Source: Nemertoderma westbladi (taxonomy: Eukaryota; Animalia; Xenacoelomorpha). From it: a DNA stretch of 64,000 bases. Location of the stretch: positions 115,057 through 179,056 of the forward strand of contig JAUCBJ010000533.1 in the NCBI GenBank assembly GCA_032718475.1, in the 5' to 3' direction. The notes below the pieces were generated by a model. The model did not search any database, was not told where the DNA came from, and was given only the letters and a program-made list of their open reading frames with translations. Shown here one piece after another: positions 1,737 through 49,400 of this stretch (the stretch's first letter is position 1; every line of letters starts with the position of its first letter). A program made the translations under genes and the position numbers.

Positions 1737-4200
1737 TATTTTACACTTTACTATCAGCACACTATAAAACCTACAGTATGTTACACTTTACTTTCAGCAC
1801 ACTATAAAACCTATGTTACACTTCACTTTCAGCACACTAAAAACCTATGATACACTTTACTTTCAGCACATTATAAAACTTATTTTACACACTTACTCTC
1901 AGCACATTATAAAATCTATTTTACACTTTACTTTCAGCACACTATAAAACCTATGTTACACTTCACTTTCAGCACACTAAAAACCTATGATACACTTTAC
2001 TTTCAGCACATTATAAAACTTATTTTACACACTTACTCTCAGCACATTATAAAATCTATTTTACACTTCACTTTTAGCACACTATAAAACCTATTTTACA
2101 CTTCACTTTCAGCACACTAAAAACCTATGAAACACTTTACTTTCAGCACATTATAAAACTTATTTTACAGACTTACTCTCAGCACACTATAAAACCTATT
2201 TTACACACTTACTCTCAGCACACTATAAAACCTATTTTACACTTCACTTTTAGCACACTATAAAACATATTTTACATTTCACTTTCAGCACACTAAAAAC
2301 CTATGTTACACTTTACTTTCAGCACACTATAAAACTTATTTTACACACTTACTCTCAGCACATTATAAAATCTATTTTACACTTCACTTTTAGCACACTA
2401 TAAAACCTATTTTACACTTCACTTTCAGCACACTAAAAACCTATTTTACACACTTACTCGCAGCACATTATAAAATCTATTTTACACTTCACTTGTACCA
2501 CCCTATAAAACCTATTTTACACTTCACTTTCAGCACACTAAAAACCTATGATACACTTTACTATCAGCACATTATAAAACTTATTTTACACACTTACTCT
2601 CAGCACATTATAAAATCTATTTCCACTTCACTTTTAGCACACTATAAAACCTATTTTACACTTCACTTTCAGCACACTAAAAACCTATGTTACACTTTAC
2701 TTTCAGCACACTATAAAACCTATTCTACACACTTACTCTCAACACACTATAAAACCTATTTTACACACTTACTCTCAGCACACTATAAAACCTATTTTAC
2801 ACTTCACTTTTAGCACACTATAAAACATATTTTACATTTCACTTTCAGCACACTAAAAACCTATGTTACACTTTACTTTCAGCACACTATAAAACTTATT
2901 TTACACACTTACTCTCAGCACATTATAAAATCTATTTTACACTTCACTTTTAGCACACTATAAAACCTATTTTACACTTCACTTTCAGCACACTAAAAAC
3001 CTATTTTACACACTTACTCGCAACACATTATAAAATCTATTATACACTTCACTTTTAGCACCCTATAAAACCTATTTTACACTTCACTTTCAGCACACTA
3101 AAAACCTATGTTACACTTTACTTTCAGCAAACTATAAACCTATTCTACACACTTACTCTCAACACACTATAAAATCTATTTTACACACTTACTCTCAGCA
3201 CATTATAAAATCTATTTTACACTTTACTTTCAGCACACTATAAAACCTATGTCACACTTCACTTTCAGCACACTATAAAACCTATTTTACCCTTCACCCT
3301 CAGCACATTATAAAATCTATTTTACACTTCACTTTCAGCACACTATAAAACCTATTTTACATTTCACTTTCAGCACACTAAAAACCTATGTTACACTTTA
3401 CTTTCAGCACACTATAAAACTTATTTCACACACTTACTCTCAGCACATTATAAGATCTATTTTACACTTCACTTTCAGTACACTAAAAACCTATTGTACA
3501 CTTTACTTTCAGCACACTATAAAACCTATTTTACACACTTACTCGCAGCACATTATAAAATCTATTTTACACTTCACTTTTAGCACACTATAAAACCTAT
3601 TTTACACTTCACTTTCAGCACACTAAAAACCTATGTTACACTTTACTTTCAGCACACTATAAATCTATTCTACACACTTACTCTCAACACACTATAAAAC
3701 CTATTTTACACACTTACTCTCAGCATATTATAAAACCTATGTCACACTTCACTTTCAGCACACTATAAAACCTATTTTACACTTCACTCTCAGCACATTA
3801 TAAAATCTATTTTACACTTCACTTTCAGCACACTATAAAACCTATTTTACACTTCACTTTCAGCACACTATAAAACCTATTTTACACTTCACTCTCAGCA
3901 CAATATAAAATCTATTTTACACTTCACTTTCAGCACACTATAAAACCTATTTTACACACTTACTCAGCACATTAAAAAACCTATTTTACACTTTACTTTC
4001 AGCACACTATAAAACCTATTCTACACTTCACTTTTAGCACACTATAAAACCTATTTTACACACTTAATCTCAGCACATTAAAAAACCTATTTTATACTTT
4101 ACTTTCAGCCCATTATAAACCTATTTCACACTTCACTTTCAGCACACAATAAAACCTATTTCACACTTCACTTTCAGCACACAATAAAACCTATGTTACA
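1737..4200. repeat. ~35-bp tandem satellite, about 70 copies
   Basis: Unit TTACACTTCACTTTCAGCACACTATAAAACCTATT with 34-36 bp variants; a rare variant (taaaacatat) recurs at 2261 and 2821, 560 bp apart. Confidence 0.97.
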
Positions 4201-4418
4201 CGACGTTGACGACTCTCTTCCCTTATCTCACCTAATTACCAAATCTTCTTCTGCACATTCTTATAGCACTCGTCTGGCCTCCTCTGGTCTATTTCACATA
4301 TAAATCGATGCAAGGCCCCCTTCTCTGGAACGCTTTATCTGAATCTATCCGTAACAGTCCTAGTCTTGAAATGTTTAAACGTCGGTTAAAATATCATTTA
4401 CTCCAGTGCAGTTATTAA
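4201..4418 (+). mobile_element. 3' fragment of a CR1/L2-group LINE ORF2
   Basis: Translates as HSYSTRLASSGLFHI / QGPLLWNALSESIRNSPSLEMFKRRLKYHLL*, the typical H.Y.TR...WN.L...FK C-terminus, also seen in the LINEs at 39606 and 61722. Confidence 0.8.
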
Positions 4419-4511
4419 TGCAACCAAGAATAAAATTATAACCCCAGGTTGCACCTCACCATCATTCTGTTTATTTTTCTCGCAGACACCTTTTGGCCAC
4501 CATTTTTTTTT

Positions 4512-4745
4512 CCAGATAGGGGGGGGGGGGCATTCGACGCAATAAAAATTCATCCCTCTCCAGGGGAAATTCGACGCAAATAACAGCTGATTACCATTAA
4601 AAAAAACTGTAACCTTTTCTATTGTCTTCAGTTTATTGTTTTGGTTAAAATAACGTGCCACTGTAACTTGCTTCTTTCCCTAAATTGAGAATTTAACATT
4701 GAGGCGGGATATTAATTCGCCGAGATGGGATTTGCGTCCAGTTCC
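4512..4745. repeat. Dispersed repeat, copy 1 (copy 2 at ~36993-37250)
   Basis: Shared cagatag-(G)n-...atccctctccaggggaaattcgacgcaaataacagctg...tttccctaaattgagaattt...gaggcgggatattaattcgc. Confidence 0.85.
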
Positions 4746-4942
4746 CCCCCCCCCCCCCCCCCCCCCCGCCGTCTCTTCTTTCCAATCACAGCCTCACATG
4801 ACCACCCGCAAAACTTAAACTAACTTGTCCTACTTCCTCCACTGCCAGAGGGCGCGCCGAGCTACACTAGCTGCGCTATAGTCTCGACCGCCCCCTACCA
4901 CCCAGCAGAGTGAAACTCTGCTTACAAGTTTATTATTATCTA

Positions 4943-7900
4943 CTAGAAAGCCAGTGGCCCTTCGGGCCACGGCTTTCTAGTTCACAAGCCTATTCACCAT
5001 TCCAAACATTAATTAATTAATTAACTTAACAAAACTTCATATGATTGAGAGTGTTCTCTCAAACAAAAGGACTGATGCTGTTTTACTTTTCAGATACCTA
5101 CACTGGTCAACGTCATTCACATTGATGCAGCCTTATGATGTAGTACAGTAGACCTCTGACAATTATCAGCGTAAAAGCATTTTTAATAAATAAATGTGAG
5201 AATGTTTTTACTTTTCAGATTCAGATTTTTCGCACCCTAGCAGTAGACTGGAAATCCGCAGACTGGTTAGCGTCCTCCCCATACAAACAGCCTATGGTCA
5301 TCATGCCTTTCCCAAGTATAAGCAAAAAAGCATTAGAAACAACGAAATGGGAGAAGAATTTCACTTGAGACATTTCACCCTCTAGCGGCAGACTGAGAAA
5401 TTGCAGATTGGTCAGAGTTTTCCACAAACACGCAGTCTATGGTGTAGTAGACCTCTGCCAAGTACCAGGCTATAAGAATTATAAACAACGAAATGGGATA
5501 AGTTTTCACTTTCAGATATTTCGCCCCTTAGTGGCCGAATGGAGAACTGCAGGTAGTTGGGAGTCCTCCACAGACACACACCATATGGTGTAATACACAT
5601 CTGCCCAGTGTCAGCCTAAAAGCATTATTAATAACGAAATGGGATAAGGTTTTCACTTTCAGACATTTGGCCCCCTAGTGGCAGACAGAGGAATTGCAGA
5701 TTGGTCAGAGTTCTCCACAAACACGCAGTCTATGGTGTAGTAGACCTCTGCCAAGTATCAGCCTAAAAGCATTATAAACAACGAAATTGGATAAGGATTT
5801 CACTTTCAGATATTTCGCCCCCTAGCGGCCGAATGGAGAACTGCAGGTAGTTGGGCGTCCTCCACAGACACACACCATATGGTGTAATACACATCTGCCC
5901 AGTGTCAGCCTAAAAGCATTATTAATAACGAAATGGGATAAGGTTTTCACTTTCAGACATTTGGCCCCCTAGTGGCAGACAGAGGAATTGCAGATTGGTC
6001 AGAGTTCTCCACAAACACGCAGTCTATGGTGTAGTAGACCTCTGACAAGTATCAGCCTAAAAACATTATAAACATCAAAATGGGATAAGGTTTTCACGTT
6101 CAGACATTTCGCCCCCTAGCGGCCGAATAGAGAACTGCAGGTTGTTCAGCGTCCTCTTCAGACACACAGCCTATGGTGTAATACACATCTGCCAAGTGTC
6201 AGCCAAAAAGCATTATTAATAACGAAATGGTATAAGGTTTTCACTTTCAGACATTTGGCCCCCTAGTGGCAGACAGAGGAATTGCAGATTGGTCAGAGTT
6301 CTCCACAAACACGCAGCCTATGGTGTAGTAGACCTCTGCCAAGTATCAGGCTATAAGAATTATAAACAACGAAATGGGATAAGGTTTTCACTTTCAGATA
6401 TTTCGCCCCTTAGTGGCCGAATGGAGAACTGCAGGTAGTTGGGCGTCCTCCACAGACACACACCATATGGTGTAATACACATCTGCCCAGTGTCAGCCTA
6501 AAAGCATTATTAATAACGAAATGGGATAAGGTTTTCACTTTCAGACATTTGGCCCCCTAGTGGCAGACAGAGGAATTGCAGATTGGTCTTAGTTCTCCAC
6601 AAACACGCAGTCTTTGATGTAGTAGACCTCTGACAAGTATCAGCCTAAAAACATTATAAACATAAAAATGTGATAAGGTTTTCACGTTCAGACATTTCGC
6701 CCCCTAGCGGCCGAATAGAGAACTGCAGGTTGTTCGGCGTCCTCTTCAGACACACAGCCTATGGTGTAATACACATCTGCCAAGTGTCAGCCTAAAAGCA
6801 TTATTAATAACGAAATGGTATAAGGTTTTCACTTTCAGACATTTGGCCCCCTAGTGGCAGACAGAGGAATTGCAGATTGGTCAGAGTTCTCCACAAACAC
6901 GCAGCCTATGGTGTAGTAGACCTCTGCCAAGTACCAGGCTATAAGAATTATAAACAACGAAATGGGATAAGGTTTTCACTTTCAGATATTTCGCCCCTTA
7001 GTGGCCGAATGGAGAACTGCAGGTAGTTGGGCGTCCTCCACAGACACACTCCATATGGTGTAATACACATCTGCCCAGTGTCAGCCTAAAAGCATTATTA
7101 ATAACGAAATGGGATAAGGTTTTCACTTTCAGACATTTGGCCCCCTAGTGGCAGACAGAGGAATTGCAGATTAGTCAGAGTTCTCCACAAACACGCAGTC
7201 TATGGTGTAGTAGACCTCTGCCAAGTATCAGCCTAAAAGCATTATAAACAACGAAATTGGATAAGGATTTCACTTTCAGATATTTCGCCCCCTAGCGGCC
7301 GAATGGAGAACTGCAGGTAGTTGGGCATCCTCCACGGACACACCATATGGTGTAATACACATCTGCCAAGTGTCAGCCTAAAAGCATTATTAATAACGAA
7401 ATGGGATAAGGTTTTCACTTTCAGACATTTGGCCCCCTAGCGGTAGACTGGAGAAATGCAGACTGATTCTAGCTCCTCCCCAAACACGCTGTATTGTGTA
7501 GTAGACCTCTGCCAAGTATCAGCAAAAAAGCATTATAAACAAAGAAATGGGATAAGGTTTTCACTTTCAGATATTTCTCCCCCTAGCGGCAGACTGGGGA
7601 ATTGCAGATTGGTCAGCATCCTCCCCAAACACACAGCCTATGGTGTAGAAGACCTCTGCCATGTATCAGCTAAAAGGCTTTATAATAACGAAATGGGAGA
7701 TGTTTTCAGTTTCGGATATTTCGCCCCCTAGCGGCAGACTGGAGAACTGCAGATTGATCAGTGTCCTCCCAAACACACAGTCTATGGTCGGGAACAGATC
7801 TGCAAAGTATCATTTAGAACAGATTAAGTCTGGTATCAAAAAGTAGCATAATAGTCGATACCCAACGTGTCGAGTGACAGAATGAACTGCTAGGCCTACC

Positions 7901-8069
7901 GCGCTACGGGTACCGAATTCACGAAATTCGCATTCACGCAAACAAACGCGTAAAATAAGACTCGAGATAGCGACAGTGCACGTGCTCGTGACGAGAGCTT
8001 TCGTTCGATGTATCGCGAGCTCCGATTGGTGCTTGTGTGTAGAAACGTATAGCTTGGACAGACAAACAA

Positions 8070-8112
<43 letters not shown>

Positions 8113-8133
8113 CATGATATTTATATATATAGA
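4943..8133 (-). mobile_element. Non-autonomous Helitron carrying an internal satellite
   Basis: Minus strand starts A|TCTATATATATAAA followed by a (TGTC)n microsatellite (8058-8112) and ends with GC hairpin GTGGCCC-GAA-GGGCCAC then CTTTCTAG|T. This is the TC...CTAG terminus pattern inserted between A and T with no TSD. Confidence 0.85.
5190..7810. repeat. 147-bp satellite, ~18 units, alternating A/B monomers
   Basis: Marker aaat(g/t)ggata at 5491, 5637, 5784, 5931, 6078 etc. A-type (gccgaatggagaactgcagg) and B-type (gcagacagaggaattgcaga) alternate; edge units are degenerate. Confidence 0.95.
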
Positions 8134-8476
8134 TACTATTGAGGAAAAAAAATCAAAAAATCACACTATAAAACACACTATTTTTCGTTTTACTCTTTAT
8201 TACAAGTGAAGTAAGTAACGATTAACACATTTAAAAATTCTTGGCTATTATTCCCAGTCTGATTTGTTAATTTAAAAATAATAATCTTCGTCATAAAATA
8301 TTAAATTTTCCATTAAGATTACAATAATAATATATTCCAAGTTATAATCAATCATATAAGATTAAATTCTCATCTCTATTATACGCCTCGCTTCGCTCGA
8401 ATTTTAATTCGAAATCAGGAACTATGATCAGATAGTTCACGCAGTTTATTTATATTGACATTTGACACATTCCAGT

Positions 8477-10219
8477 TCAAATATCATTTAACGCCTCAAA
8501 ATAAGACCCAACGAAATCGTAAAACATTGTTGGCTCGCCACTTAAGCAGTTGGAATTAACATGTTTAACAAACTTAGTCGTTCCCTTTTCCCTATAAACT
8601 AAAGCCAAGTTGTTCCCTACCGGTTCCACAGTTAGTAGTTCCTCATTGTCCGCGACGTAGTTAGTTGCACCGCCGCATATAGCGTCCCAAACACCGTCTA
8701 CAAAGTAAAGAGCGATATCCAGAGAATCTCGGGAGAATTCGTGTGAATCTTCGTGAACTAGAGTGTAATCCCCGTGTGAGAACCGACGCAATGAGACACC
8801 GCACGCTGGGGTACCATTGGTGGATTCAGTACCTGTGTTACTATTGGATGACCCACACACTGTGTTCCTATTGACAGATTGAACTCCCGCATTCCTAATG
8901 GCTGACCCAGATACAGTGCTCCCATTGGTTGATTCAATTCCCGTGTTCGTATTGATTGGCAGCTCTTCACTATCAGAGGACTGAATATCCCCCACATCAC
9001 TCTCACTACCTTCACTAGTAGCCGCTAACTCGTGAAGCTTCAATCCGGTGCAGTTTGAGAGAAAAACAAAGAATTGTTCGCTTCGAAACAGCCGCAGACA
9101 TTTGCTAATCGCCATCGACTCACGTAAAGAGGATTCTAGGGCACGATGGTAATGGAATCTATTGGGAACAGCTAATGATTCCCAGGAAATGGAGCTTAAT
9201 TCCTCCAAAAGAGACGCGTAAACTCTGGGAAGGAAGAAATCTGTTAACTTAATCTGGCTTTCATCGCCAAACGTCTCTCGAATATCAGTCTGACAGGTGA
9301 GGTTTAAATATTTCGGATTAATAAACGAATTCAATTCAATTTCGTAGGAGATATGCCGAGTTAGGGGGAGCGGAGGCTGAATGTTGCGGTTATCCGTATA
9401 ATCTCCGTGATACCAACCCGACACGGAGAGTCGAGATCCCCTGGAATCAGAGAGGATCTCCGATACCTGATGGAAGGAAATCGGACTCACTTTAAATAAG
9501 ATTATTCGATTGCGTACAGGTGCGAGCCTTGCGACAATGTCGTCAGGTCTTCCTAAGGAGTCCACGGAGAATAGATCCAAAGTACCTCCGTTGTCTTCAG
9601 GTTTCCAGTCCGCGGATACCAGGTAGAAAGTAAACGCGATTCTTCGGTCGTCTAACATATCGTCGTGGCAGAGTAGGGTGTCTGTCCGTGAGTATCGAGA
9701 GCAGGATATGCTTATCGTGTCGTTCAGAACTATACCGCTCGCTTTGGCGACCCAATTCCTGAATCGCGAGTATAATTCCGTGCGAAACCGGTCTAAGGTC
9801 CGTCCTACAGGGCAACGACTTAAATCCTGCGATTGAGAAAATTGAAACAGGTCGTTGGATTTCTTATGAAACTCTAAGGATTTTACTTCCGTTTCGAGTT
9901 GTTCCAACACCGAGGCCTTGAGAAAATTGTCTACGATGACATACGGAAAGGGGTAACCATTGGAAAGAACTTTGAGAGTCCCAAAATTCCTAGTTTCGTG
10001 GGACTTTTCGCTTTCTGCTTTGGTCGCGAAGCGAAACAAGTTACTCCTTCCGTTGTTAAGGAGAGACTCATCACTACTCTCTGCGACAAACAGTTCGTCG
10101 TTTATAACGTTACTTCCGAAACCTTCTCGAAATTCCGGCTTAGATTTCTTTGGGTTCACGAATTCCGTATCAGGTGAACAATTGGTAATGCGCTTAACTG
10201 AATGGGAAGTAACATCCAT
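8477..10219 (-). CDS. OGFOD1: Prolyl 3-hydroxylase OGFOD1/Tpa1 (2OG-Fe(II) oxygenase), single coding exon, 580 aa
   Basis: KSNDLFQFSQSQDL, Fe-binding LLCHDD (HxD), RRIAFTFYLV, SFHQVSE, RLSVSGWYHG; C-terminal Ofd1-type domain with GDYTLVH and NNLALVYR...KFVKHVN. Confidence 0.93.
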   Translation of the reverse strand: MDVTSHSVKRITNCSPDTEFVNPKKSKPEFREGFGSNVINDELFVAESSDESLLNNGRSNLFRFATKAESEKSHETRNFGTLKVLSNGYPFPYVIVDNFLKASVLEQLETEVKSLEFHKKSNDLFQFSQSQDLSRCPVGRTLDRFRTELYSRFRNWVAKASGIVLNDTISISCSRYSRTDTLLCHDDMLDDRRIAFTFYLVSADWKPEDNGGTLDLFSVDSLGRPDDIVARLAPVRNRIILFKVSPISFHQVSEILSDSRGSRLSVSGWYHGDYTDNRNIQPPLPLTRHISYEIELNSFINPKYLNLTCQTDIRETFGDESQIKLTDFFLPRVYASLLEELSSISWESLAVPNRFHYHRALESSLRESMAISKCLRLFRSEQFFVFLSNCTGLKLHELAATSEGSESDVGDIQSSDSEELPINTNTGIESTNGSTVSGSAIRNAGVQSVNRNTVCGSSNSNTGTESTNGTPACGVSLRRFSHGDYTLVHEDSHEFSRDSLDIALYFVDGVWDAICGGATNYVADNEELLTVEPVGNNLALVYREKGTTKFVKHVNSNCLSGEPTMFYDFVGSYFEALNDI

Positions 10220-22229: not shown

Positions 22230-23170
22230 TAAACTTTCAGACACTAGCAGTTCAACAGTCTCCCACTGAAGGGCTATGTCTAAACATTAAATGTTCTTCC
22301 ATTTCTTGCTTTTAATTCTTTCAAGCTGAAACTTAAGCAGATTTGTAATAAATAATTAGTTATGTCATTCAAATGGGGCTAATCCGTCTGCAGTTCTTTA
22401 TTCTATACTGCTAGATGGTGAAATGTCTAGAAGTGAAATCTTTTGACCCATTCTGTTATTTATGATACATCCAAGTTGAAACTTGTCAGATATGTGCTAG
22501 AACACATCCTATATCTTTGTGGGTTCGGGAATTCTCCACTCTGCTGTCTGCTGCTAGAGGGCGAAATGTATGAAGTGATAACCTTATCCACTTCCTTGAT
22601 CTTAATCTGTTTTAAGCTGAATCATATAATATATGTACCAGACCGCATGCTGTGTCTTTTTGAGGAAAGTGATTTATCAGCAGTTTTCTAGTCTGCCGTT
22701 AGAGGTCGAACTGTCTGTAAGTGAAAACCTTCACACATTTCCGTGATTTGAATTAATTCGTTTAAGCTGAATCTTGTCTTATACAGTACTGTATGTTGTA
22801 CTATAGGCCTACCCGTCTACCACATGGTGTGTCTTTGTGAAGGTGATTGGTCTGCAGCAGTTTTCCAGTCTAGATGGCGTAATACCTGAAAGTGAAAAGC
22901 TTCCAACTTTCCTTGATTTTAATCCATTTAAGCTGAAACTTTGCGTTTATACTAGAGAAAAATGGCTGCTTATTTGTGGGATGGTACTCCATCTACACTT
23001 CTACAGTTTGCCGCTAGAGGTCGACATATCTGAAAGTGAAAACCTTCTTTCACTTCGTTATCCGTTTAAGTTCCATTTGGCGGACATGCTAGACTGTAGA
23101 CCATCCATAGGCTACAGTACCTCTTTGTTGGGACGGTAATCTCTCAGCAGTTCTCCATTCTAGCGCTAGT
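22230..23170. repeat. Old, diverged copies (~6) of the 147-bp satellite in opposite orientation
   Basis: E.g. gtctgctgctagagggcgaaatgtatgaagtgataaccttatcc matches the reverse complement of the 5190-7810 monomer. Confidence 0.85.
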
Positions 23171-23258: not shown

Positions 23259-26200
23259 TGTAAACGGATTCAATTCCACTTCATTACCCACCAGAAAATG
23301 GGACTAGCGGCATTTTAGCAATATGTTGGGGATACGAGATTACCAATATTAATCTCGTATCATAAACAACATTGGGGGGGGGGGGGGGGGGTGTGGGGCG
23401 ACACAAGCTCCAAAGCCACATAGGAAGGTTAGAGGTCAAACCACCTCGGAGGGAATACAGCTAGTAGAGGCTAGCAGGGGAGGGAAAACACTCCCTGAGA
23501 GTGCCAAGGTGACAAGTAGTATATTAGCCAATAGAGGGGAGGGAAGCACGTGATAGGGAACAGGAAAGCATCCATTGGGTAGAAGGCCAAAGTAGAGTAA
23601 GAGGTGAAGCAATATTCAATGTATTAACCATATATTATCTCAGATTGTTGGATTGGTGTATCAGTTGTGTTATTCAGTTTAGGGCAGACCAGTCATAGTT
23701 ATTGACCAACAACGCCATACTGGTAACTATTTATCTGTATTTCTGCATCTTATTCTATTGTGCTATCACTGCGAGTATTTACTAATATCGAAAGACAACA
23801 TCAAATTCTTATTGTTTTTCCCCTACGGCCTCGGCCAAAGCTGTCAGCACAATCCCCAAGCAGAACGGTGACGCGTACTATAACAACCCGGTCGGGATCC
23901 CTGATCCCGTCACAATCAATAACTCCACCAACTGTTAACATAAACTGTGACTGTGAGAAGGAAAGGAAAGATGAGCGACAGAGAGCCCCGATTATCTGAG
24001 TGAGAGAGGACGCCGCCGCGGACCCCGGACGATACCAACCAAATGATCCGTGAGGCCGCGACGAGACGGTATCGGACTGCCACACCGGATTCGCCAACGA
24101 GGGACGATCCGGCTGCCCAAGCGGAGGGCGGCTGCCAACCACGAGAGGGAGACGAGTCGATGCACGATGGCGGTCGGAGTACCGAAGTCGCCGGCCAGCC
24201 ACAGGAAAGGGGCGACAGACGGACCAACGGGAACGGCGACGGTGGAGCTGCCGGTACGACGCCGAACCAGGAGAGGAGGAGGTCGGGACAAGTGATCGGC
24301 TATGACGGGCCTACAACGCCACCAAGAAGTTACTGAAGGAGGCCAGAGAAGGGAGAAAGGTAGACCAGCCTAAACTACGTCAGAGACTAGATGAGTCGAA
24401 TAAACATTTTCGATATTTAGTCCGATTTGGACAGGGAGAACTGGCGAGTGAGAGAGCGAGGGGGGTCATCCGGAACTGTTTGAATTGTGGCAGTCCGGGG
24501 TAATGGAGCCTGAAGTAGAGTACGTAGGGCCTTACTTAGTGGATGCTAGGAGAATTAAGTTAGTGGGTTGGGTGGATCCGCACGAGGGCGAACCTGAGTT
24601 TAACCCCGAGGATTCGGTCTCGTCGGTTAGCGAGAACCCCCATAAAGCAGGGGAAAGTAAGCAGGACAGAGAGGCGATGGGAGTCCGTCGCGACCGATAA
24701 GTCTGCTACATCCTCCGCAAAAGCAAGAAGGGTGTTAGAAATAGATCTGGCGTGTCAACTAGATATGGTGGCGCTAGACCAGAAGGAGTTAGAGAGGCAG
24801 CTGGATGAGGGAACTGCGTTATTAGAGAAAGAGAGAGAGTTAGCGAGGGAATGTAGAGAGAGGGCCGAGAGGGCAGCGAGGAACTGTAGAGAGCAAGAAG
24901 AGAGAGAGACAAATGAGCGTAAAGAGCGAGAGGCGAGAGTAGAGAATGAGCGTAGAGAGCGGGAGGCAAGAGAGATAGAATTAGCGAACCAAAGTTTGCG
25001 AGAGGATAGAGAGAGAGAGAGCGGGAAAGCGTATGCGGGATGATATGCATGCCCGGTTAAGGGGGCTTATGCAATACCAGGCAAAGCAAAAGCGCCGATT
25101 AGAACTGGCCCAGTTGGGATTATCAGAGAGTGAGGCCGGTTCGGGTAGTATTTATGAGGAGCCCGAAGTAATGGAAACGTTTCTTAATACCCCACTTACA
25201 GGCACCGGATGACAGACCCAGGACTGGTGTAACCGTACGGGCGGGGGGGGGGGGGGGGGGTAATAATAATACGTTAGAAGGAATCAATATTAATAGTACC
25301 GTAGTAGACAACCCTAATCAAACCTTTATTGCAGGAAGTAATCTTTTATCCGGTAATAACAATTCTAATTTAAATACACAAAATAATAATAATTCTAATT
25401 TAAATATAGAAAATAATAATAATTTTAATTTAAATATACAAAATAATTCAAATAATAGTCCTGATTCCGAGCAAAATAATTTAAATAATTTGGATAACAA
25501 TAATATTGATAATGGTGCTATTAATACAAACGTAGGAGACATAGGTGGTCTGGGCAGCGAGAGCCTGTAAGACCACGTAGTTACGCAGGGAGTAGCGGGG
25601 GTGAGTCACCCCGACGGGAGCCTGCAAGGCCACGTAGTTAGGTAGGGAGTAGTGGGGGTGAGTCAACCCGACGGGAGCCTGCAAGGCCACGCAGTTGCAC
25701 AGAGAGAGGCGGGGGTGAGTAGACCCAGCCGCAGTAGAGACAATGCGTCGACTAGAGAGGGGCATAGAAGCAAAGTAGGATGTAGTGAAGTAAGAAGTGA
25801 CGAGTGGGGGGGGGGGGGGGGGCTACGGGCGCCCCACCATGGGAGATTAGTGGCGAGAGGGGCGGGGGGCAGAGAATGTCCCACAAGAGGGGCGTAGAAG
25901 CGAAGGAAGAGGTAGTGAAGTAAGAAGTGGTGAGTGGGGGGGGGGGGGGGGGGCTACGGGCACCCCACCACGAGAGATTAGTGGCGAGAGGGGGGGGGGG
26001 CGGAGAATGTCCCACGAGCGTCGGCGGATAATGCGCGGGGCGAGTTAGGTGAACTGCGGCACCCGACGACGGAGAATAGTAGGGGGGTTATTGCGAGTAT
26101 CCCCAGGAGCGTCCAACTGGGCAGAGAGAGAGATGTTGACGCCGAGAGCGGGCGAGCGAGAAGACATCAGTCGGAAGAGGGAAGAAGAACAGTGGAGTTT

Positions 26201-29200: not shown

Positions 29201-30638
29201 GGGGTATGGTATGTAGGTATACCATAGAAGTAGTAGCAGAGGGATTGTGGGCACCGAAAGCGCCACATAGTAAGAGAGTGAAGGGTGTGGTATGTAGGTA
29301 GTAGCATTATTAGGGTACATAGTACCATAGAAGTTAGAAGTTGTGGGCACCAAGAGCGCCACGTAGTAAGAAAGTAAAGAGTATATATGCATAGCATAGT
29401 AGTGGTAGGGTACATAGTAAGAAGGAAGTAGAGAAGTAGATAGGATAATAGCACAGACAGGGGGAACATAAGAAAAATAAAATAAGACTAAAGGAAAATT
29501 GGCACTTTGGGAGTGGTAGAGAACACAGGACATTGTGGAGCAGTGGGGAGGGGCCAGCTCATGGGCCTTGTCTGCCTCAAGCCGATGGACTGGGGCAAGT
29601 TCCGGGGGGATTACGGAGCGGGCACAGGACATTGTGGAGCAGTGGCGATGGGCCAGCTTATGAGGCTTGTCTGCCACAAGCCAATGGACTGGGGTAAGTT
29701 CCGAGAGGAGTATGAGAGGAGTACAAGGGAAGCATGGAGAGGAGGTGTTGAAACATGAGCGAGAGAGAGGAGTGCAATTCAAGTGTGGGGAGCGAGCAGT
29801 AAGAGAGAGAGTAAGGGACAATGAGGTCCGTGAGAGAGAGAGAGAGTAAGGGACAGAGGGGTCAAATTAGAGTGAGGTTTTTTGAAAATTGTGAGAAAAG
29901 AGTCCACAATTGTCTCAAACGGAGACGTCAGATACCTTGGTGCAACATAGCTCGTGATTGCACCAAGGAGGGGTAGCAACAACATACCGAGGGGGGCGGC
30001 CTGGAAAGCCGACCCCGAGTAAAGAACTCCACCCCACACCCGATATTAGATTGGGTTCCAGCGGAATTGAAGCGTACTCGAGGTTGATGCTATCTTCTCA
30101 TCGGGAAGATAGCATGGGGGGTGTGTAAGCGGATTCAATTCCACTTCATTACCCACCAGAAAATTGGACTAGCGGAAATAGGAAGGTTAGAGGTCAAACC
30201 ACCTCGGAGGGAATACAGCTAGTAGAGGCTAGCAGGGGAGGGAAAACACTCCCAGAGAGTGCCAAGTTGACAAGTAGTATATTAGCCAATAGAGGGGAGG
30301 GAAGCATGTGATAGGGAACAGCAAAGCATTCATTGGGTAGAAGGCCAAAGTAGAGTAAGAGGTGAAGCAATATTCAATGTATTAACCATATATTATCTCA
30401 GATTGTTGGATTGGTGTATCAGTTGTGTTATTCAGTTTAGAGCAGACCGGTCATAGTTATTGACCGACACCGCCATACCGGTAACTATTTATCTGTATTT
30501 CTGCATCTTATTATATTGTGCTATCACTGCGAGTGTTTACTAATATCGAAAGACAACATCAAACTCTTATTGTTTTTCCCCTACGGCCTCGGCCAAAGCT
30601 GTTAGCACAACCCTGTCGGGATCCCTGATCCCGTCACA
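23259..30638 (+). mobile_element. Non-autonomous BEL/Pao LTR retrotransposon with both LTRs and 5-bp TSD
   Basis: 5' LTR 23259-23914 and 3' LTR 30124-30638 (TGTAA...TCACA); TSD ATGGG on both sides; G-rich tract before the 3' LTR; degenerate gag (LQVYTGGPA...AWWALDREYG; LCHRCVVEGHRFGEC), protease LVDS*A, AILTPFGW; no RT or integrase seen. Confidence 0.93.
28790..29400. repeat. ~81-bp tandem repeats inside the BEL element
   Basis: Seven copies of core TGTGGGCACCGAAAGCGCCAC with purine-rich linkers. Confidence 0.9.
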
Positions 30639-35017: not shown

Positions 35018-35518
35018 TACCGGTACGTTTTAGATAGTTACAGTAGAAATATATTGTTCCATTTGTATCATATAGGCAGGCCTAATGTTTTATTTTATTT
35101 TATTGCAATAAACAGATAAACAATCTGACAATCATACTGTCATGGCATCGGTACGACGGTACGGTACCGGTACGGTAACGAACGGTACAATCTGACAGTA
35201 CACTGGTTAGCTGGTACAGGTACTACTGTACTAAGAAATAAAAATATAATAATGCTGTATTAGTATTGTAGTCATAGTTCATAGTCTGATAGTCGGAGAT
35301 AATGATGTAGGCCTATTGTATACGTACTCAGGTACATAGGCCTACTTTTCCTTATTTAGCATATTACAGTATTAATGAAAATCGTCTTGCTTAATAATGT
35401 CAATGTTTATACCTCTCTCATCTCTGCCAGTCTGCTCTACATCTGCTTGCATTTAGATTAATATAGAATACACAATATATTATATTAATTGATTGCCCTA
35501 CTCCAACCACGTTCTGAT

Positions 35519-36967
35519 ATGTCTCGTCTCGCCGACTACTTTGTCGTAGTCGGCTACGACCCCGACGTGGAACGTGGCGGCCTTCAAGGCGACGGGAAAA
35601 TCCTACAGCGATTCCCGGAGGAGGATTGGCCGGACTGCGTGTTCCACCCGGGGATCGAGCACTTCTGCCAACCCCAGGGGTGGAAGTTGAGTCGCGAGAG
35701 ACGCGATCCAACCTTCTTCGTCTCGGTTCTCACTGACATCTCGGCGGAGCGACACTTCTGCGCCTGTCTCACCTTCCACGAGAAAGTGGCCACGCAAGTC
35801 GATGACAGACCTCACGAAGCAGACGAAGAGGCTGAAGATTGCGGGGAAGAAACCTCCTTCATTCCCGCCAAACAGATGTTTATGTTCGCGCCCAAATCAA
35901 TCGTCCTCATATCTCGACTTAACTACTTCGACACCTTCCGAAACTGCCTCGGACTCATCTTCACTTCCTTCGTAGAAGACAACAAATCGTCTTCGTCACC
36001 AGAGGAGATAATTGGCAACATCCTCGGAAACATCCAGATCCCCCCTCCGGGTGGGGCTCAGGTCTCGTTCCGCTTGGGCAACACCGACAGCCAGGTGATC
36101 CAACCCCCGTGCAGCGACACGCTACCCACCTCGGGACACACCGTCGCCCTCCTCTTCCGCCAACTCGGTGTCTCCAACTGCATCTTCCTATTCGCCGCCG
36201 CGCTCACCGACCATAAAATCCTCTTCCAATCGACCAGCTACAACCGTTTAACCGAAGCCGGTCAGTCGCTGATCGCTCTCCTCTACCCCTTCAAGTACAG
36301 CTACGTCTACATCCCAGTCCTTCCAGTCTCCCTCCTCGATGTTCTCTCGACCCCGACTCCCTTCATCATGGGTATGCACGCGTCCGTCAACCACGATCGC
36401 TCCGACCTTCTCGACGTGATCGTGGTGGACCTGGACGGGGGCACCGTCGTGGTCCCCGAGTCTAGCAACCTCTGCCTCATCCCGGACCCCATGAGTTCCA
36501 GACTTTCCGACTCGCTTATCTCCGTTTTACATCCCGATCTTCTGTACGCCGACCACCAATTCCCTCCGGCACACAACAGCTTCAAGAAGACCACCACCGC
36601 GCTCCTCGATAAAGAGATTCGCGCGATCTTCCTCAGACTCTTCGCGGAGCTCCTCTACGGCTACCGTAACTGCCTCACAATCATACGGATTCACCCGAAA
36701 CCCGTAATCACCTTCAACAAACAGATGTTCATGTCCCTCCGCGGACTCACCGACGACGACTTCCTCACTCGGCTCCTCGACTCGATGGGGTTTCACGAGT
36801 TCATACAGGAGCGGGGCGCTCCCTACCGGCCCTGCGACGTGTTCGACGACCTCACCGCCCACATACAGACGCTGTTGGAGGGCGAGAGGGACGACCATCA
36901 CAGGTCCTTGAGGAATATACACGACCTGGGGAAGCAACTCTATCAGAATGAGAACCCATCCAATCAG
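35519..36967 (+). CDS. SBF: SET-binding factor / myotubularin-related 5/13, exon 1 (uDENN-DENN-dDENN)
   Basis: Starts MSRLADYFVVVG; ILQRFP, FCQPQGW, YVYIPVLP, TPTPFIMG, DKEIRAIFLRLFAELL; 483 codons ending at CAG|gtgagt (phase 0). Confidence 0.95.
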
Positions 36968-36992
36968 GTGAGTCGAACTGTCTATGTCTAAC

Positions 36993-37250
36993 ACAGATAG
37001 AAGGGGGGGGGGGGGGGGGGGGGGCTGGACGTAATAAAAATTGATCCCTCTCCAGGGGAAATTCGACGCAAATAACAGCTGGTTACTCTCAAAAATAAAA
37101 CTGTAACCTGTTCTATTGTGTTAAGTTTATTGTTTTGGTTAAAATAACGTCCCACTGTAATCTGCTCCTTTCCCTAAATTGAGAATTTAATTTAACATTG
37201 AGGCGGGATATTAATTCGCAAAGACGGGATTTGTGGCCAGTTTCCCCCCG
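36993..37250. repeat. Dispersed repeat, copy 2 (copy 1 at 4512-4745)
   Basis: Direct similarity over ~230 bp to 4512-4745. Confidence 0.85.
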
Positions 37251-43136: not shown

Positions 43137-44616
43137 TAGTGTTTAAACTTTTTGGGATTCCCGGGATCGGGATTGTAATTTTGGATTAATTTCCTTAATG
43201 TTATTAGTACGGTATATGTGGCGTGGCCGGTGGCGTGGCGGGTTTTGGGCAACACTCACTTTATTTCACACTTCTGAAATATTAGTAAGGTAAAGTTATT
43301 ATAAATTTATTTATAGTTAATTACTGGAAGATTTACTGACATTCAGTAATCCGACATCTCGATATAATCAATAATGTCTATTCTGGTTCAACTAACCAAT
43401 AAATTTACTTAAAAACTATTTATACTTCGGGATCCAAAAATGTCGGGACCTGGATTGCATTTTTCACCGGAATCCCGTTCGGGACGGGAATCCCGTTCGG
43501 GACCGGAATCCCGTTCGGGACCGGAATCCCGTTCGGGACCGGAATCCCGTTCGGGACCGGAATCCCGTTCGGGACCGGAATCCCGTTCGGGACCGGAATC
43601 CCGTTCGGGACCGGAATCCCGTTCGGGACCGGGATCCCGTTCGGGACCGGAGTCCCATTCGGGACCGGAATCCCGTTCGGGACCGGAGTCCCGTCGGGAC
43701 CGGGATCCCGTTCGGGACCGGGATCCCGTTCGGGACCGGAATCCCGTTCGGGACCGGAATCCCGTTCGGGACCGGAGTCCCGTTCGGGACCGGAATCCCG
43801 TTCGGGACCGGAATCCCGTTCGGGACCGGAATCCTGTTCGGGACCGGAATCCCGTTTGGGACCGGAATCCCGTTCGGGACCGGAATCCCGTTTGGGACCG
43901 GAATCCCGTTCGGGGCCGGAATCCCGTTCGGGACCGGAATCCCGTTCGGGACCGGAGTCCCGTTCGGGGCCGGAATCCCGTTCGGGACCGGAATCCCGTT
44001 CGGGACCGGAATCCCGTTCGGGACCGGAATCCCGTTCGGGAGCGGAATCCCGTTCGGGACAGGAATCCCGTTCGGGACAGGAATCCCGTTCGGGACCGGA
44101 ATCCCGTTCGGGACCGGAATCCCGTTCGGGACCGGAATCCCGTTCGGGACCGGAATCCCGTTCGGGACCGGAATCCCGTTCGGGACCGGAATCCCGTTCG
44201 GGACCGGAATCCCGTTCGGGCCGGTCCGTTCGGGACCGGAATCCCGTTCGGGACCGGAATCCCGTTCGGGACCGGAATCCCGTTCGGGACCGGAATCCCG
44301 TTCGGGACCGGAATCCCGTTCGGGACCGGGATCCCGTTCGGGACCGGAATCCCGTTCGGGACCGGGATCCCGTTCGGGACCGGAGTCCCATTCGGGACCG
44401 GAATCCCGTTCGGGACCGGAGTCCCGTCGGGACCGGGATCCCGTTCGGGACCGGAATCCCGTTCGGGACCGGAATCCCATTCGGGACCGGAATCCCGTTC
44501 GGGACCGGAGTCCCGTCGGGACCGGAATCCCGTTCGGGACCGGAATCCCATTCGGGACCGGGAATCCCGTTCGGGAACGGAACCCCGTTCGGGACCGGAA
44601 TCCCGTTCGAACACTA
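43137..44616. mobile_element. hAT-type MITE with expanded internal minisatellite
   Basis: Ends TAGTGTTTAAAC / GTTCGAACACTA; 8-bp flanks GTTTAGAG and GTTTAGAA (7/8 match); gggattcc motifs near both ends. Confidence 0.75.
43467..44608. repeat. 18-bp GC-rich minisatellite, ~63 copies
   Basis: Unit GGGACCGGAATCCCGTTC with few variants. Confidence 0.98.
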
Positions 44617-45632: not shown

Positions 45633-46457
45633 GAGATCAATCACGAGAACAACAACCGTGAATTATGAATCTCTCTTTCCTACAACAACAACCTACGGCT
45701 ACCTCTATAAAGAGGCAGTTTCGGTATAATTTGTCCTGAAAAACAACGAATTGGATAAATTTGGGACGTTATTGCAACCCCGCAAAATACAAACCTCTAT
45801 CCTCTAACCTCATACACTTTTTAAAATATAATTTATCGATTGCTCTATTAGAGTGTGGTTGAAAATGATGTAATATTTCACGGCTTTCTTGAATTAGAAA
45901 AAATAATTACATTTTAGAATTGGAAGTGGAATTAAATATAATCATTAATATCCAGAACAGAATGAGCCCAAAATCAGCTCCCTGCTATCGAAACCCTCAT
46001 AGTAATGTCCGGAATAAGCTTAAAATGATGGACTTTTTTTCTCAACATATAGTCAATCAGACTATATAAAACTTATTTTGGGAAATATGGTTCTCCTTGT
46101 TCCCCACAATAATATTTAACAATATTTTATCAACCGAAAAGATCCGCTGCGACCAGTGTAACTGTAACTGTTTCGCAATGGTGTACATAAAATTTGAGTT
46201 ATACTATATAGTCCTGTACCTGTAATTTTAATTTATTAGCGATGAAAAAAGTTAGTTAGATTATTTTCGTTATTTAATAACTTAATTATTTTCGTTATTT
46301 AATAACCTAAAAAAAACATTAATTTACGTTTATTTAAAAAAATATATATAAAATTTCACTTTTTATCAATTTTACTCGATTGTTTATTATCCTGGTTTAG
46401 AGTTCCCGGTACTTGAAACTATATATTATCACATTAGTAACATTTCCTTTCCCACAG

Positions 46458-49400
46458 GTGTTTGCTCAGAAGATTCCCAGAGCTAGCGACGAAGCGTACA
46501 ACAAGCTGGAAACGACTTTCCCGCATCTCAACGCCGAGATAATAGCCGAAGTTATCGTCGACGGACAAAGTAAACTCACTCTCGCTAACCGAATCGCGAG
46601 TAGCGTGAAGAAATCGAAACCTCGCAACGTGCCGTGTGCCGTAATACGGCAACACGACGAACTGCTGAGTTGCGGAGTCCGCCGGCTGGAGGTTCTTCGT
46701 GAATGCATCACGAATATATTCGAATCGAAGATAACCGAAGCGCGTAAAACCTTCCAGGCTGTGAAGCGGGCGTTGCGGACCAAGGCAGCGCGTAAAGCGC
46801 TCACGCAGGAGCTCTCTAAGGGGCTCAAATACAACAGGTCAGTGTTAGACAACTCCCAATTCGATCTTATAGTTAAACTACTGAACGCCGCGCTTATTGA
46901 AGAGGACGCCATGGGGCAGGACTTTACGGTGGCTCGGGCCGTGTTGCCTCTGGCTACGATGTTCTGTAGGAAGCTCGGGGGTGGAGGGGGCATCATGCAG
47001 TTTATTTACAGTAAAATTCAACACCATTCGGTCTGGGGCTCGCAGCAGTTCTGGGAGAATTGTTTCTACTCGGACGTGGAGCAGCACATACGTTCGTTGT
47101 ACCGGGCGGAAGGCTCTAGCGTTAACGGATTAACTCGTACCGAATCCAGTGTTGAGAACGAGGCGATGTCAGCCTTGGATATCGCCGCTGAACAGCTGAA
47201 GTTGTGGTCGACGTTGAGTGACACAGAACGGCAAAGTCGTGTGCAGAGTGAGGAGTCTACTGTCTACAGTCAGGCTGTTCATTACTCTAATAGGATGGTC
47301 TATATGAGGATCCCGTTGGATATGCGGCGAGGTGTCACTCTGCTGCGTACTGGTACAGGCCTGGAGGGGCAGGAGAGTGGCAGCAGCAATGTAACCAACA
47401 GCGTGGGAGGTTGCAGTGAGAGTTACGACGCGGACTCAGTCGGGGACGAGGAACTCAACGACCTCGGTACGTTGGTCGTCAGATTCGTCTGCCGGTTCAT
47501 TGATAAGGTCTGCATCTACGCGGGGGTTTCCGACGACCACCTCAAGGCGTTGCACTGCATGGTCCCGGGCGTGGTCGCGATGCACATGGAGTCGGTGGAG
47601 GCCGTCTACCGCGAGTCCAAGTCGCTCCCCGAGGTGCAGAAACCCGCGATCGGACCGCCTGCGTTGCTCCCCGGCGAGCGATTCGCCTCACGAGACGCGA
47701 TCACCGCCTACCTCCTCACGGACGGACGGGACGCGGACAACATCGCCGACCAATCCAAAGGGCAGCTCCCCGGGTTGAACTTCCTCCCAGCGGAAGGGCA
47801 AATCTTCCTCACAAACTACCGCGTCATCTTCAAAGGTTCGCCAATCGATATGATACTCAGCGATCACGTTATCATACGAAGTTGCCCCCTCGGGCACATC
47901 GTCAAAGAGAAGCGGATCAACGGGCAGTGGGCCGTCATCAGCGGGGTTGATGATGACGTTGTGGACCGGTACGCCACTCAAGGCTACCAGATCCGATCGG
48001 CTTCCTTCCAACTCATTAAAGTCGCTTTTGACTTGCGGATTCCCTCGGATTCGATCAACATTGAGAACCTCGTGAAGGGGATGCGCCGACTGCGTTACCC
48101 GGATAGCGTGCACTCGGTGTTCGCCTTGGTCGATTCCGCGGCCCCCGAGGTGCTCATCACGCTGCGTGGATCCAAAGGGAGTCGACGCGTCGGCGGTAAG
48201 GGGTCCACACTGCGCGGGATGGTGGACTACGCGATGCGACGCGGGGTAAAGGGGCGAACGCTGAGCGCCAAGTCGAAAACCACCTCATTGGGAGCGTCTA
48301 GTACGTCGTCCTTGTCGGAGAACGACGAAGACGGGGAGTGGGGCGGCTACAGGGAGGATATGAGTTTGGAGCGGCTCTACGAGCGGCCCTATGTTCGGGA
48401 TTACATCCGGATGGGTTTAACCGTTGGAATATCTTCCGCGCTTACTAATGGCATTTCCGTTGCCACTAACGTGGTCGGGAAGTCCTCGACTCGGTTGTGT
48501 TCCATCAACCTCGATTACGGGATGTGTAAGAGTCTCCCAGCGGGGTTTATAGTCCCCTCGCGTATCAACGACGCCACGGTGGCGCGCGCCGCTCGATGCC
48601 ACCGATTGGCGCGGGTCCCCGCCATCGTGTGGCGGCATCCGTCGTCCCGCGCACTCCTGCTGCGGGCCTCCGCCATGCAGCATCCCCGCGCCTTGATCCG
48701 GGGCGGTGGCGGCGGCGGGAGCGGCGCCGGCGGAGGGCAGGATACCACGAACTCGATCGAGTTGGAGAAGTATCTGGAGACTGTTGTCTCGCTGACGCCG
48801 GGTTTCGCAAGCAGACCAGGTTCCCAGGGCTCCACGCTCACCGCCCCCGCTCACACTCCGGCCAACTCCGACTCCGGAATGTCGGATGGTTTGACCGCCG
48901 CCGACGCGTCTTCCTCGCATTCCAGCTCGCCGAAGAATCGAGCGAAGCGAGGTAGCAAATTGTCCCGGGCCATGGGCGGCCTGCGGGCCAGTGGGAAGGC
49001 GACGTTGAAGAATTTTCAGGGCGGAATAACTGGAGAGTCGGGAACTCTTAGTAGAACGAAGGGCGAGAGTTCTCCCCCTCCGTCATCCAACGTAGAGAAC
49101 CCTCCATCGCCGTCTGGCACACTAACCCCCAGTCAGGTGGAGGGGCGACTAACGCCCATGGAGGCTGGGCGTAGTTCGGGGGGCGGGCACAGCCCATTGG
49201 GGCGCGACTCTTTCACAGGTTCTCAGGAAGGCTTCTCCCTCTACGTACTCGGTGACAAAAGTCTCGTAAAGGGCGTCTCCTCTGTGAAACACGACGGGCT
49301 TCTTCCCAAGATTGAATGCATCCCGGTGGACCTTCCCGAGATCCGCTTGTTGCGAGCTGGATTCCGTAAACTAATGCGCGCGTGCGTTCCCTCTGGGGCG

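What the first reader, a model, noticed from the sequence alone, without database searches (positions are those of the whole stretch)
4943..8133. Helitron carrying a 147-bp satellite with a CTCF-consensus motif in nearly every unit
Seen: most monomers contain GCCCCCTAGTGGC or GCCCCCTAGCGGC, i.e. GCC(A/G)CTAGGGGGC on the minus strand; a few read GCCCCTTAGTGGC. Established: the CTCF core consensus is CC(A/G)(C/G)(C/T)AG(A/G)(G/T)GGC, and 147 bp is the length of nucleosome core DNA. Inference: a rolling-circle element may disperse ready-made arrays of ~17 co-oriented insulator sites; this one ends ~350 bp from the OGFOD1 stop codon. The match to nucleosome length may be coincidence.
Basis: partly seen in the sequence, partly recalled or inferred. 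Interest (0 to 1): 0.75.

Follow-up and report, generated by a model that had tools for sequence, protein, structure and literature searches.

The report
Helitron satellite with two-part CTCF sites
A non-coding rolling-circle transposon in an invertebrate animal carries 18 tandem repeats, nearly all containing a close match to the full two-part docking site of the genome-folding protein CTCF at the same spacing as a proven human insulator, so it likely scatters ready-made CTCF arrays through the genome, though neither binding nor a CTCF gene in this species has been shown.

Summary
Observation confirmed and extended. 8133→4943 (− strand) is a 3,191-bp non-coding Helitron: A|TC … hairpin–CTAG|T, a (GTCT)n microsatellite and 18 × 147-bp units in a 294-bp dimer. 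12 of 18 units match the CTCF core exactly and 17 of 18 match at ≥11/12. Public contigs show the element is multi-copy and that the ~50-bp block holding the site is the best-shared part of the unit. Against: a neighbouring non-CTCF box is conserved better, the spacer about as well, a second array in the window is decaying, and the arrays are CpG-depleted. One gene places the host among non-protostome bilaterians (one test disagrees); its CTCF gene and binding are untested. The 147-bp length is probably coincidence. TE-borne CTCF sites, CTCF minisatellites and Helitron-borne factor-site clusters are each known, and this scan noted similar CTCF repeats in other genomes. I found no report of this combination. 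New variant; interest 0.55.

The parts
4943..8133 (-). Non-autonomous Helitron, 3,191 bp, inserted between A and T; no coding capacity (longest stop-free frame 107 aa)
8113..8133 (-). 5' end, beginning TC
8057..8112 (-). (GTCT)n/(GTTT)n microsatellite near the 5' end, 14 units
7789..8056 (-). 5' unique segment; summed contig depth 188-1,487 times the OGFOD1 level in runs X1-X3 (not a copy number)
5147..7788 (-). Satellite array, 18 x ~147 bp; central units alternate as a 294-bp A/B dimer (six central A units 94-99% alike; A vs B about 73-80%); terminal units diverged
7723..7734 (-). Example CTCF core, CCGCTAGGGGGC, the same 12 letters as in the chicken beta-globin HS4 probe printed in PMC12885311
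7743..7752 (-). Example upstream (ZF9-11) motif, CTGCAGTTCT, 9/10 to the printed consensus, 8 nt from the core
5670..5699 (-). Example A-type two-part site: CTGCAATTCC, 8 nt, CCACTAGGGGGC; no CpG at core positions 2 or 12
7701..7722 (+). Adjacent conserved box (TTTTCACTTTCAGA-type), the most conserved part of the unit; not part of the CTCF consensus
4954..4970 (-). 3' subterminal hairpin (7-bp stem), ending 11 nt before the end; extended by arms 4942-4952 / 4971-4981
4943..4946 (-). 3' terminal CTAG
22246..23169 (+). Second, older array of the same satellite family (about 65% identity, inverted; five scorable units plus partial ones); cores 9-11/12, upstream motif partly decayed; no Helitron ends like those of the element found
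8477..10216 (-). OGFOD1, a single uninterrupted ORF (neighbour, not part of the element)

Best explanation
This is a non-coding Helitron whose central satellite unit contains a close sequence match to the two-part CTCF site (core plus upstream motif at the canonical spacing), so each copy likely delivers an array of same-direction sites that CTCF would occupy where the DNA is unmethylated. Shown: Helitron ends and A|T site, the array, the two-part match, multi-copy status, and a shared ~50-bp block that ends at the upstream motif. Inferred: (1) the unit arose by tandem amplification of a real ancestral CTCF site; (2) an autonomous Rep/Hel partner elsewhere moves the element by rolling-circle transposition; (3) host CTCF binds some units, preferentially the CpG-free A type; (4) any benefit is more likely selfish or neutral (locally open chromatin on the element) than a host-selected boundary. 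At a 147-bp pitch fully occupied sites would exclude nucleosomes rather than phase them.
For: Upstream motif 9/10 in 15 of 18 units, 8/10 in 2 and 6/10 in 1; the best match among gaps of 3-12 nt lies at 8 nt in all 18. The IL3 +2.9 kb insulator probe has the same 8-nt gap, and loss of the upstream motif there abolishes enhancer blocking (PMC12885311, passages); zebrafish ChIP also gives 8- or 12-bp spacers (PMC7182764, passage). Chance of >=9/10 at one fixed place is 2.2e-5 by composition, with 5 such hits in about 119,000 positions outside the arrays; 0 of 60,000 monomer shuffles gave core>=11 plus upstream>=8 at a 7-8 nt gap. No other position in three monomers exceeds 7/10. In runs X1-X3 the bin holding the core is 12-23 times deeper than the neighbouring bin; 52, 60 and 43 contigs stop matching right behind 7753, the outer end of the upstream motif, and their loose ends agree only 0.54-0.57; 84-91% of depth at 7727 reads T, a change at the consensus' A/G position. 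SBF2 places the host inside Bilateria (SH-aLRT 100); on fixed backbones AU rejects grouping with Actinia (2e-8), with Sycon (0.016) and with protostomes (<=2.4e-4). CTCF is reported only in bilaterians (PMC8851819, passages).
Against: No binding data and no host genome, so the CTCF gene is untested. In 14 non-redundant units the core (0.84) and upstream motif (0.84) are barely above the spacer (0.80); 29 of 136 12-nt windows are at least as conserved as the core, and the best window is the non-CTCF box (0.93). Non-consensus core changes occur (C2->T in 3 units, G11->T in 2, C12 changed in 3). The second array has kept a >=7/10 upstream match at the 8-nt gap in only 2 of 5 units. CpG o/e is 0.47-0.51 in the arrays against 1.17-1.21 in the two genes, which suggests methylation, and methylation at core C2 blocks binding (PMC10484683, passage). 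The freer constraint test did not reject host + Actinia (p-AU 0.54); placement rests on one gene and two named non-bilaterians. The depth contrast partly depends on which monomer served as reference. The upstream motif is reported absent in Drosophila and possibly vertebrate-only.
Confidence: 0.58

Rival explanations
1. Fossil site: the satellite captured a real two-part CTCF site once, but copies are now methylated, unbound and evolving neutrally; the shared block reflects repeat turnover (gene conversion, unequal exchange).
For: CpG depletion; C>T and G>A are the commonest changes among contigs; decay in the second array; spacer about as conserved as the motif.
Against: The block shared across the family ends at the outer edge of the upstream motif, and its commonest variant is CTCF-tolerated; both A and B unit types keep a 9/10 upstream match through different changes.
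Confidence: 0.2
2. Another protein maintains the block: the selected element is the neighbouring TTTTCACTTTCAG box (it resembles IRF/PRDM1 sites, recalled, not tested) or a Helitron/satellite factor site, and the CTCF-like letters are a passenger or coincidence.
For: That box is the best-conserved window; the 11-mer TTCACTTTCAG occurs 21 times in the unrelated 35-bp minisatellite at 1737-4201, 13 times in this array, twice in the second array and nowhere else in the window.
Against: It does not explain a core plus a 9/10 upstream motif at the exact spacing (joint chance below 1 in 60,000 shuffles).
Confidence: 0.12
3. Host-co-opted mobile insulator: insertions are retained because they act as chromatin boundaries; this one shields the 3' end of OGFOD1.
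For: Sites with the upstream motif, and tandem copies, are the strong insulators in vertebrate assays; B2 SINE-borne sites act as barriers in mouse; the element begins about 30 nt past a likely OGFOD1 poly(A) site.
Against: No Hi-C or expression data; the window is full of other transposon debris, so nearness to a gene means little; CTCF does not mark domain borders in zebrafish embryos or Drosophila.
Confidence: 0.1

Closest known systems
Rodent B2 SINEs carrying the two-part M1+M2 CTCF site (PMC3368268; passages)
   Same: A mobile element disperses the full core-plus-upstream site to thousands of loci.
   Different: Those are retrotransposons with one site each and ChIP-proven binding; here a rolling-circle DNA element carries 18 tandem sites in an invertebrate, with binding untested.
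Caenorhabditis Helitrons with clustered heat-shock elements (PMC6927752, passages; PMC8896005, passages)
   Same: Helitrons carry dense clusters of a factor's binding site and spread them.
   Different: HSF-1 enhancer sites, not an architectural protein; C. elegans lacks a CTCF-like system.
Cg_HINE elements of Crassostrea gigas (PMC7492417; passages)
   Same: Non-autonomous Helitron-superfamily element: GTCY-type microsatellite near the 5' end, central satellite-like array, 3' palindrome.
   Different: HINEs have subterminal inverted repeats; none were found here, and this element has TC/CTAG ends in A|T. The word CTCF does not occur in that paper.
Mouse DXPas34 minisatellite and DXZ4 macrosatellite (PMC3149622, passages; PMC3491370, search listing only)
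   Same: Tandem repeat with a CTCF site per unit.
   Different: Single-locus mammalian repeats, not a dispersed mobile family.
Non-autonomous DNA transposons enriched at zebrafish CTCF peaks (PMC7182764; passage)
   Same: DNA elements as CTCF carriers; upstream motif at an 8-bp spacer.
   Different: Vertebrate; the passages read name no Helitron or tandem array.
Helitron-derived PATC insulators of C. elegans (bioRxiv 10.64898/2026.08.08.743475; abstract and passages) and Helitron-marked sperm loops of Xenopus tropicalis (Shi et al. 2023; title in a reference list only; paper not held)
   Same: Helitron repeats linked to chromatin boundaries or loops.
   Different: PATCs work by DNA mechanics without CTCF; the Xenopus mechanism could not be read.

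Membership tests
Canonical non-autonomous Helitron | 5' TC and 3' CTRR ends (letters recalled; 'conserved terminal nucleotides') | tested here: met
   TC at 8133-8132, CTAG at 4946-4943
Canonical non-autonomous Helitron | Hairpin close to the 3' end | tested here: met
   z -8.5; inner stem ends 11 nt from the end
Canonical non-autonomous Helitron | Insertion between A and T | tested here: met
   A|TC ... CTAG|T; no empty site was seen
Canonical non-autonomous Helitron | Dispersed multi-copy family | tested here: met
Canonical non-autonomous Helitron | Autonomous Rep/Hel partner in the genome | not testable with these tools
   no genome held; element itself non-coding
HINE / DINE-1 (Helentron-associated) | 5' and 3' subterminal inverted repeats | tested here: not met
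   no shared inverted 8-mer, and no direct 9-mer, between the first 330 and last 220 nt
HINE / DINE-1 (Helentron-associated) | 5' microsatellite, central tandem repeats, 3' palindrome | tested here: met
Two-part CTCF site (core + upstream) | Core consensus bound by ZF3-7 | tested here: met
   12 of 18 exact, 17 of 18 >=11/12; consensus matching only, no weight matrix was available
Two-part CTCF site (core + upstream) | Upstream CTGCAGTTCC-like motif at the canonical spacing and orientation | tested here: met
   9/10 in 15 of 18, 8-nt gap in 18 of 18
Two-part CTCF site (core + upstream) | Selective constraint on contact positions | tested here: inconclusive
   block conserved, motif not separable from spacer and neighbouring box
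Two-part CTCF site (core + upstream) | Host encodes CTCF | tested here: inconclusive
   host probably a non-protostome bilaterian (disagrees); gene itself not searchable
CTCF insulator | In vivo binding and enhancer-blocking or boundary activity | not testable with these tools
   no ChIP, ATAC or Hi-C run among the 8 listed

The most novel reading that the evidence does not exclude
A rolling-circle transposon in a deep-branching bilaterian (placement fits a xenacoelomorph worm) has seeded the genome with thousands of full two-part CTCF sites in tandem arrays that are bound and act as mobile insulators. That would show that ZF9-11 recognition of the upstream motif, thought possibly vertebrate-only, goes back to early bilaterians; the CpG-free/CpG-bearing 294-bp dimer could then give an alternating CTCF-nucleosome lattice.
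Probability: 0.15. Interest if true: 0.85.

Novelty: new variant of a known kind. Interest (0 to 1): 0.55.

Why it matters
Transposon-driven spread of CTCF sites is established for mammalian SINEs, and the upstream motif is described mainly in vertebrates. A Helitron satellite built on the full two-part site in a non-protostome invertebrate gives a direct test of two open questions: how old ZF9-11 upstream recognition is, and whether invertebrate genomes acquire architectural sites in ready-made arrays. If unbound, it is an ordinary satellite-bearing Helitron that once captured a CTCF site.

Tried and rejected
No whole genome is held, so there was no CTCF gene search, copy count or empty-site search. 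No RNA holder was listed; this is no evidence on expression. A per-position variant spectrum of the motif across all genome copies was not obtained, so selection on contact positions stays open. Rfam: 0 matches in 4300-8500. HINE/Helentron membership rejected (no subTIRs). Nucleosome-length link rejected: related units are 143-171 bp, and core plus linker needs more than 147 bp (established knowledge). A CTCF downstream motif was looked for by eye: no GAG triplet at the ZF1 position described. Protein searches found no close relative of the host (best 42% OGFOD1, 58% SBF2), so the lineage rests on trees; the host + Ciona and host + protostome constraint tests did not finish or run, and Ciona was not among the 10 fixed trees. 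In one search's larger FastTree, which includes distant unnamed rows, the bilaterian grouping is weakly supported (0.24-0.70). Literature: 10 searches. 'CTCF + helitron' held 63 papers, 40 listed; none of the listed titles or abstract starts reports a Helitron-borne CTCF array. 'CTCF + upstream motif + invertebrate' held 1. 'CTCF + Hofstenia' held 4; I read passages of one, which does not state CTCF status in xenacoelomorphs. Two relevant papers were not held. No supplements were opened; figures with the full CTCF logos are not held.

Full report
The observation. The sequence shows an element on the minus strand from 8133 to 4943. It starts TC after an A and ends CTAG before a T. A 7-bp-stem hairpin ends 11 nt before the 3' end and sits inside a longer stem (-20.2 kcal/mol, z -8.5, 0 of 200 shuffles). 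A (GTCT)n microsatellite lies at 8057-8112 and an 18-unit array at 5147-7788. The longest stop-free frame is 107 aa and Rfam finds nothing. Insertion between A and T, a 3' hairpin and conserved ends are the hallmarks named in PMC5714489 (passages); the letters TC/CTRR are recalled. There are no subterminal inverted repeats, so it is not a HINE, although its layout resembles Cg_HINE (PMC7492417, passages). The central units alternate as A and B types in a 294-bp dimer; six central A units are 94-99% alike and terminal units are more diverged.

The motif. One monomer shuffled 200,000 times gave an exact core 98 times. Since the units share one ancestor and many factor motifs could have been noticed, this alone is weak. 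The independent test is the upstream motif bound by fingers 9-11. PMC12885311 (passages and section 10) prints it as CTGCAGTTCC-like and gives the IL3 insulator probe, in which it lies 8 nt from the core. In the array the best match among gaps of 3-12 nt is at 8 nt in 18 of 18 units: 9/10 in 15, 8/10 in 2, 6/10 in 1. A units read CTGCAATTCC and B units CTGCAGTTCT, each with a different single mismatch. Chance at one fixed place is 2.2e-5 (1.3e-4 over six spacings); 0 of 60,000 shuffles gave the pair, all 17 two-part hits in the window lie in this array, and no other position in three monomers passes 7/10. Six units have the same 12-letter core as the chicken HS4 probe in that paper.

The family. 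Contigs of four public runs (three samples) were laid on 7560-9400. In X1-X3 the OGFOD1 side has depth about 25, the element's 5' segment is 188-1,487 times that, and the bin holding the core is 5,900-11,500 times that and 12-23 times the neighbouring bin. The tool warns that these sums are no copy number. Many contigs stop matching behind 7753, the outer end of the upstream motif (52, 60, 43 and 6 contigs; loose ends agree only 0.54-0.61), and before 7704-7720. At 7727, 84-91% of depth reads T, which turns AGG into AGA at the consensus' A/G position. Table 3 showed 40 of 78 rows, so rarer variants in the motif are unseen. A second array at 22246-23169 (inverted, about 65% identity) and a 41-bp remnant at 57942-57982 (E 0.004) lie in the window.

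In 14 non-redundant units (9 from the array, 5 from the second array; one partial unit left out) mean column conservation is core 0.84, upstream 0.84, spacer 0.80 and rest 0.75. Between arrays identity is core 0.65, spacer 0.66, upstream 0.68, adjacent box 0.79 and rest 0.48. So a ~50-bp block is kept, but the CTCF letters are not singled out, and the best window is the TTTTCACTTTCAGA box. The second array was found by similarity, which favours conserved blocks. It has kept a >=7/10 upstream match at 8 nt in 2 of 5 units; one has 9/10 at 10 nt. CpG o/e is 0.47-0.51 in the arrays and 1.17-1.21 in the genes, so methylation is likely. [quoted passage not shown]

The host. OGFOD1 and SBF2 have no close relative in the databases. 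With named outgroups the SBF2 tree puts the host with bilaterians (SH-aLRT 100) and outside protostomes, ambulacrarians and vertebrates. Among 10 fixed topologies on 13 of those rows, AU accepts sister-to-other-bilaterians (0.62), with Ambulacraria (0.60), with amphioxus (0.37) and with vertebrates (0.19), and rejects Actinia (2e-8), Sycon (0.016) and four protostome placements (<=2.4e-4). This pattern fits a xenacoelomorph (inference). A freer test did not reject host + Actinia (p-AU 0.54), and this is one gene on a long branch. CTCF is reported only from bilaterians (PMC8851819 and PMC7555945, passages); I found no statement on xenacoelomorph CTCF.

How it most likely works. Shown: a multi-copy non-coding Helitron carries a satellite whose unit matches the full CTCF site. 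Inferred: a real site was amplified into the satellite, an autonomous Helitron moves it, and CTCF occupies unmethylated or CpG-free units. At a 147-bp pitch bound neighbours leave too little DNA for a nucleosome, and related units are 143-171 bp, so the length match is probably coincidence. Host-selected insulation of OGFOD1 is possible but unsupported. Overall 0.58, against a neutral fossil site 0.20, another factor 0.12 and a co-opted insulator 0.10.

Comparison and novelty. B2 SINEs spread the two-part site in rodents (PMC3368268, passages). Non-autonomous DNA transposons are enriched at zebrafish CTCF peaks. Caenorhabditis Helitrons carry clustered HSF-1 sites. DXPas34 is a CTCF minisatellite, and C. 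elegans Helitron repeats insulate without CTCF. The searches named under Tried and rejected showed no Helitron-borne tandem CTCF array and no upstream motif in an invertebrate, but the library lacks most subscription journals, and a paper on Helitron-marked loops in Xenopus could not be read. Earlier notes of this scan report CTCF-motif repeats in other genomes, including a two-part site in an annelid and a foldback element (unchecked); none matched this sequence or genome. Verdict: new variant of a known kind, interest 0.55.

Noticed in passing
window 1737-4201: A 35-bp minisatellite (70 copies) shares the 11-mer TTCACTTTCAG with the 147-bp unit: 21 exact copies there, 13 in the array, 2 in the second array and none elsewhere in 64 kb. 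Unexplained: a common factor site or shared ancestry.
   Followed up: partly
window 8163, 8196-8201: A contig of run X4 covers OGFOD1 at depth 820 and carries 23 non-genomic T before 8163, 33 nt past an AATAAA on the minus strand. X4 may be RNA, and the OGFOD1 poly(A) site would lie about 30 nt outside the Helitron. One contig only.
   Followed up: partly
window 8477-10216, 35489-36991, 46401-51047: Host genes are nearly intron-free: OGFOD1 is one ORF and SBF2/MTMR13 (about 2,000 aa) lies in two long frames separated by about 9.4 kb that holds a LINE and an 18-bp repeat.
   Followed up: partly
window 5147-7788 and 22246-23169: The two arrays point away from each other and bracket OGFOD1 and about 14 kb of retroelement debris; probably chance.
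   Followed up: no
window 4831-4853: A solitary 11/12 CTCF-core match without an upstream motif at 4842-4853, about 90 bp outside the element's 3' end.
   Followed up: no
window 4519-4750 and 37013-37249; 23420-23855 and 30178-30613: Two other dispersed repeats: 88% over 239 bp, and 97% over 436 bp; the latter pair flanks DUF1759-bearing frames and looks like LTRs of a BEL/Pao-type element.
   Followed up: no
window 43466-44609 and 54154-55657: Homogeneous minisatellites: 18 bp x 64 (94%, open in all six frames) and 47 bp x 32 (99%).
   Followed up: no
whole window: CpG is depleted in the satellites (o/e about 0.5) but not in gene bodies (about 1.2), which hints at repeat-targeted rather than gene-body methylation.
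   Followed up: partly
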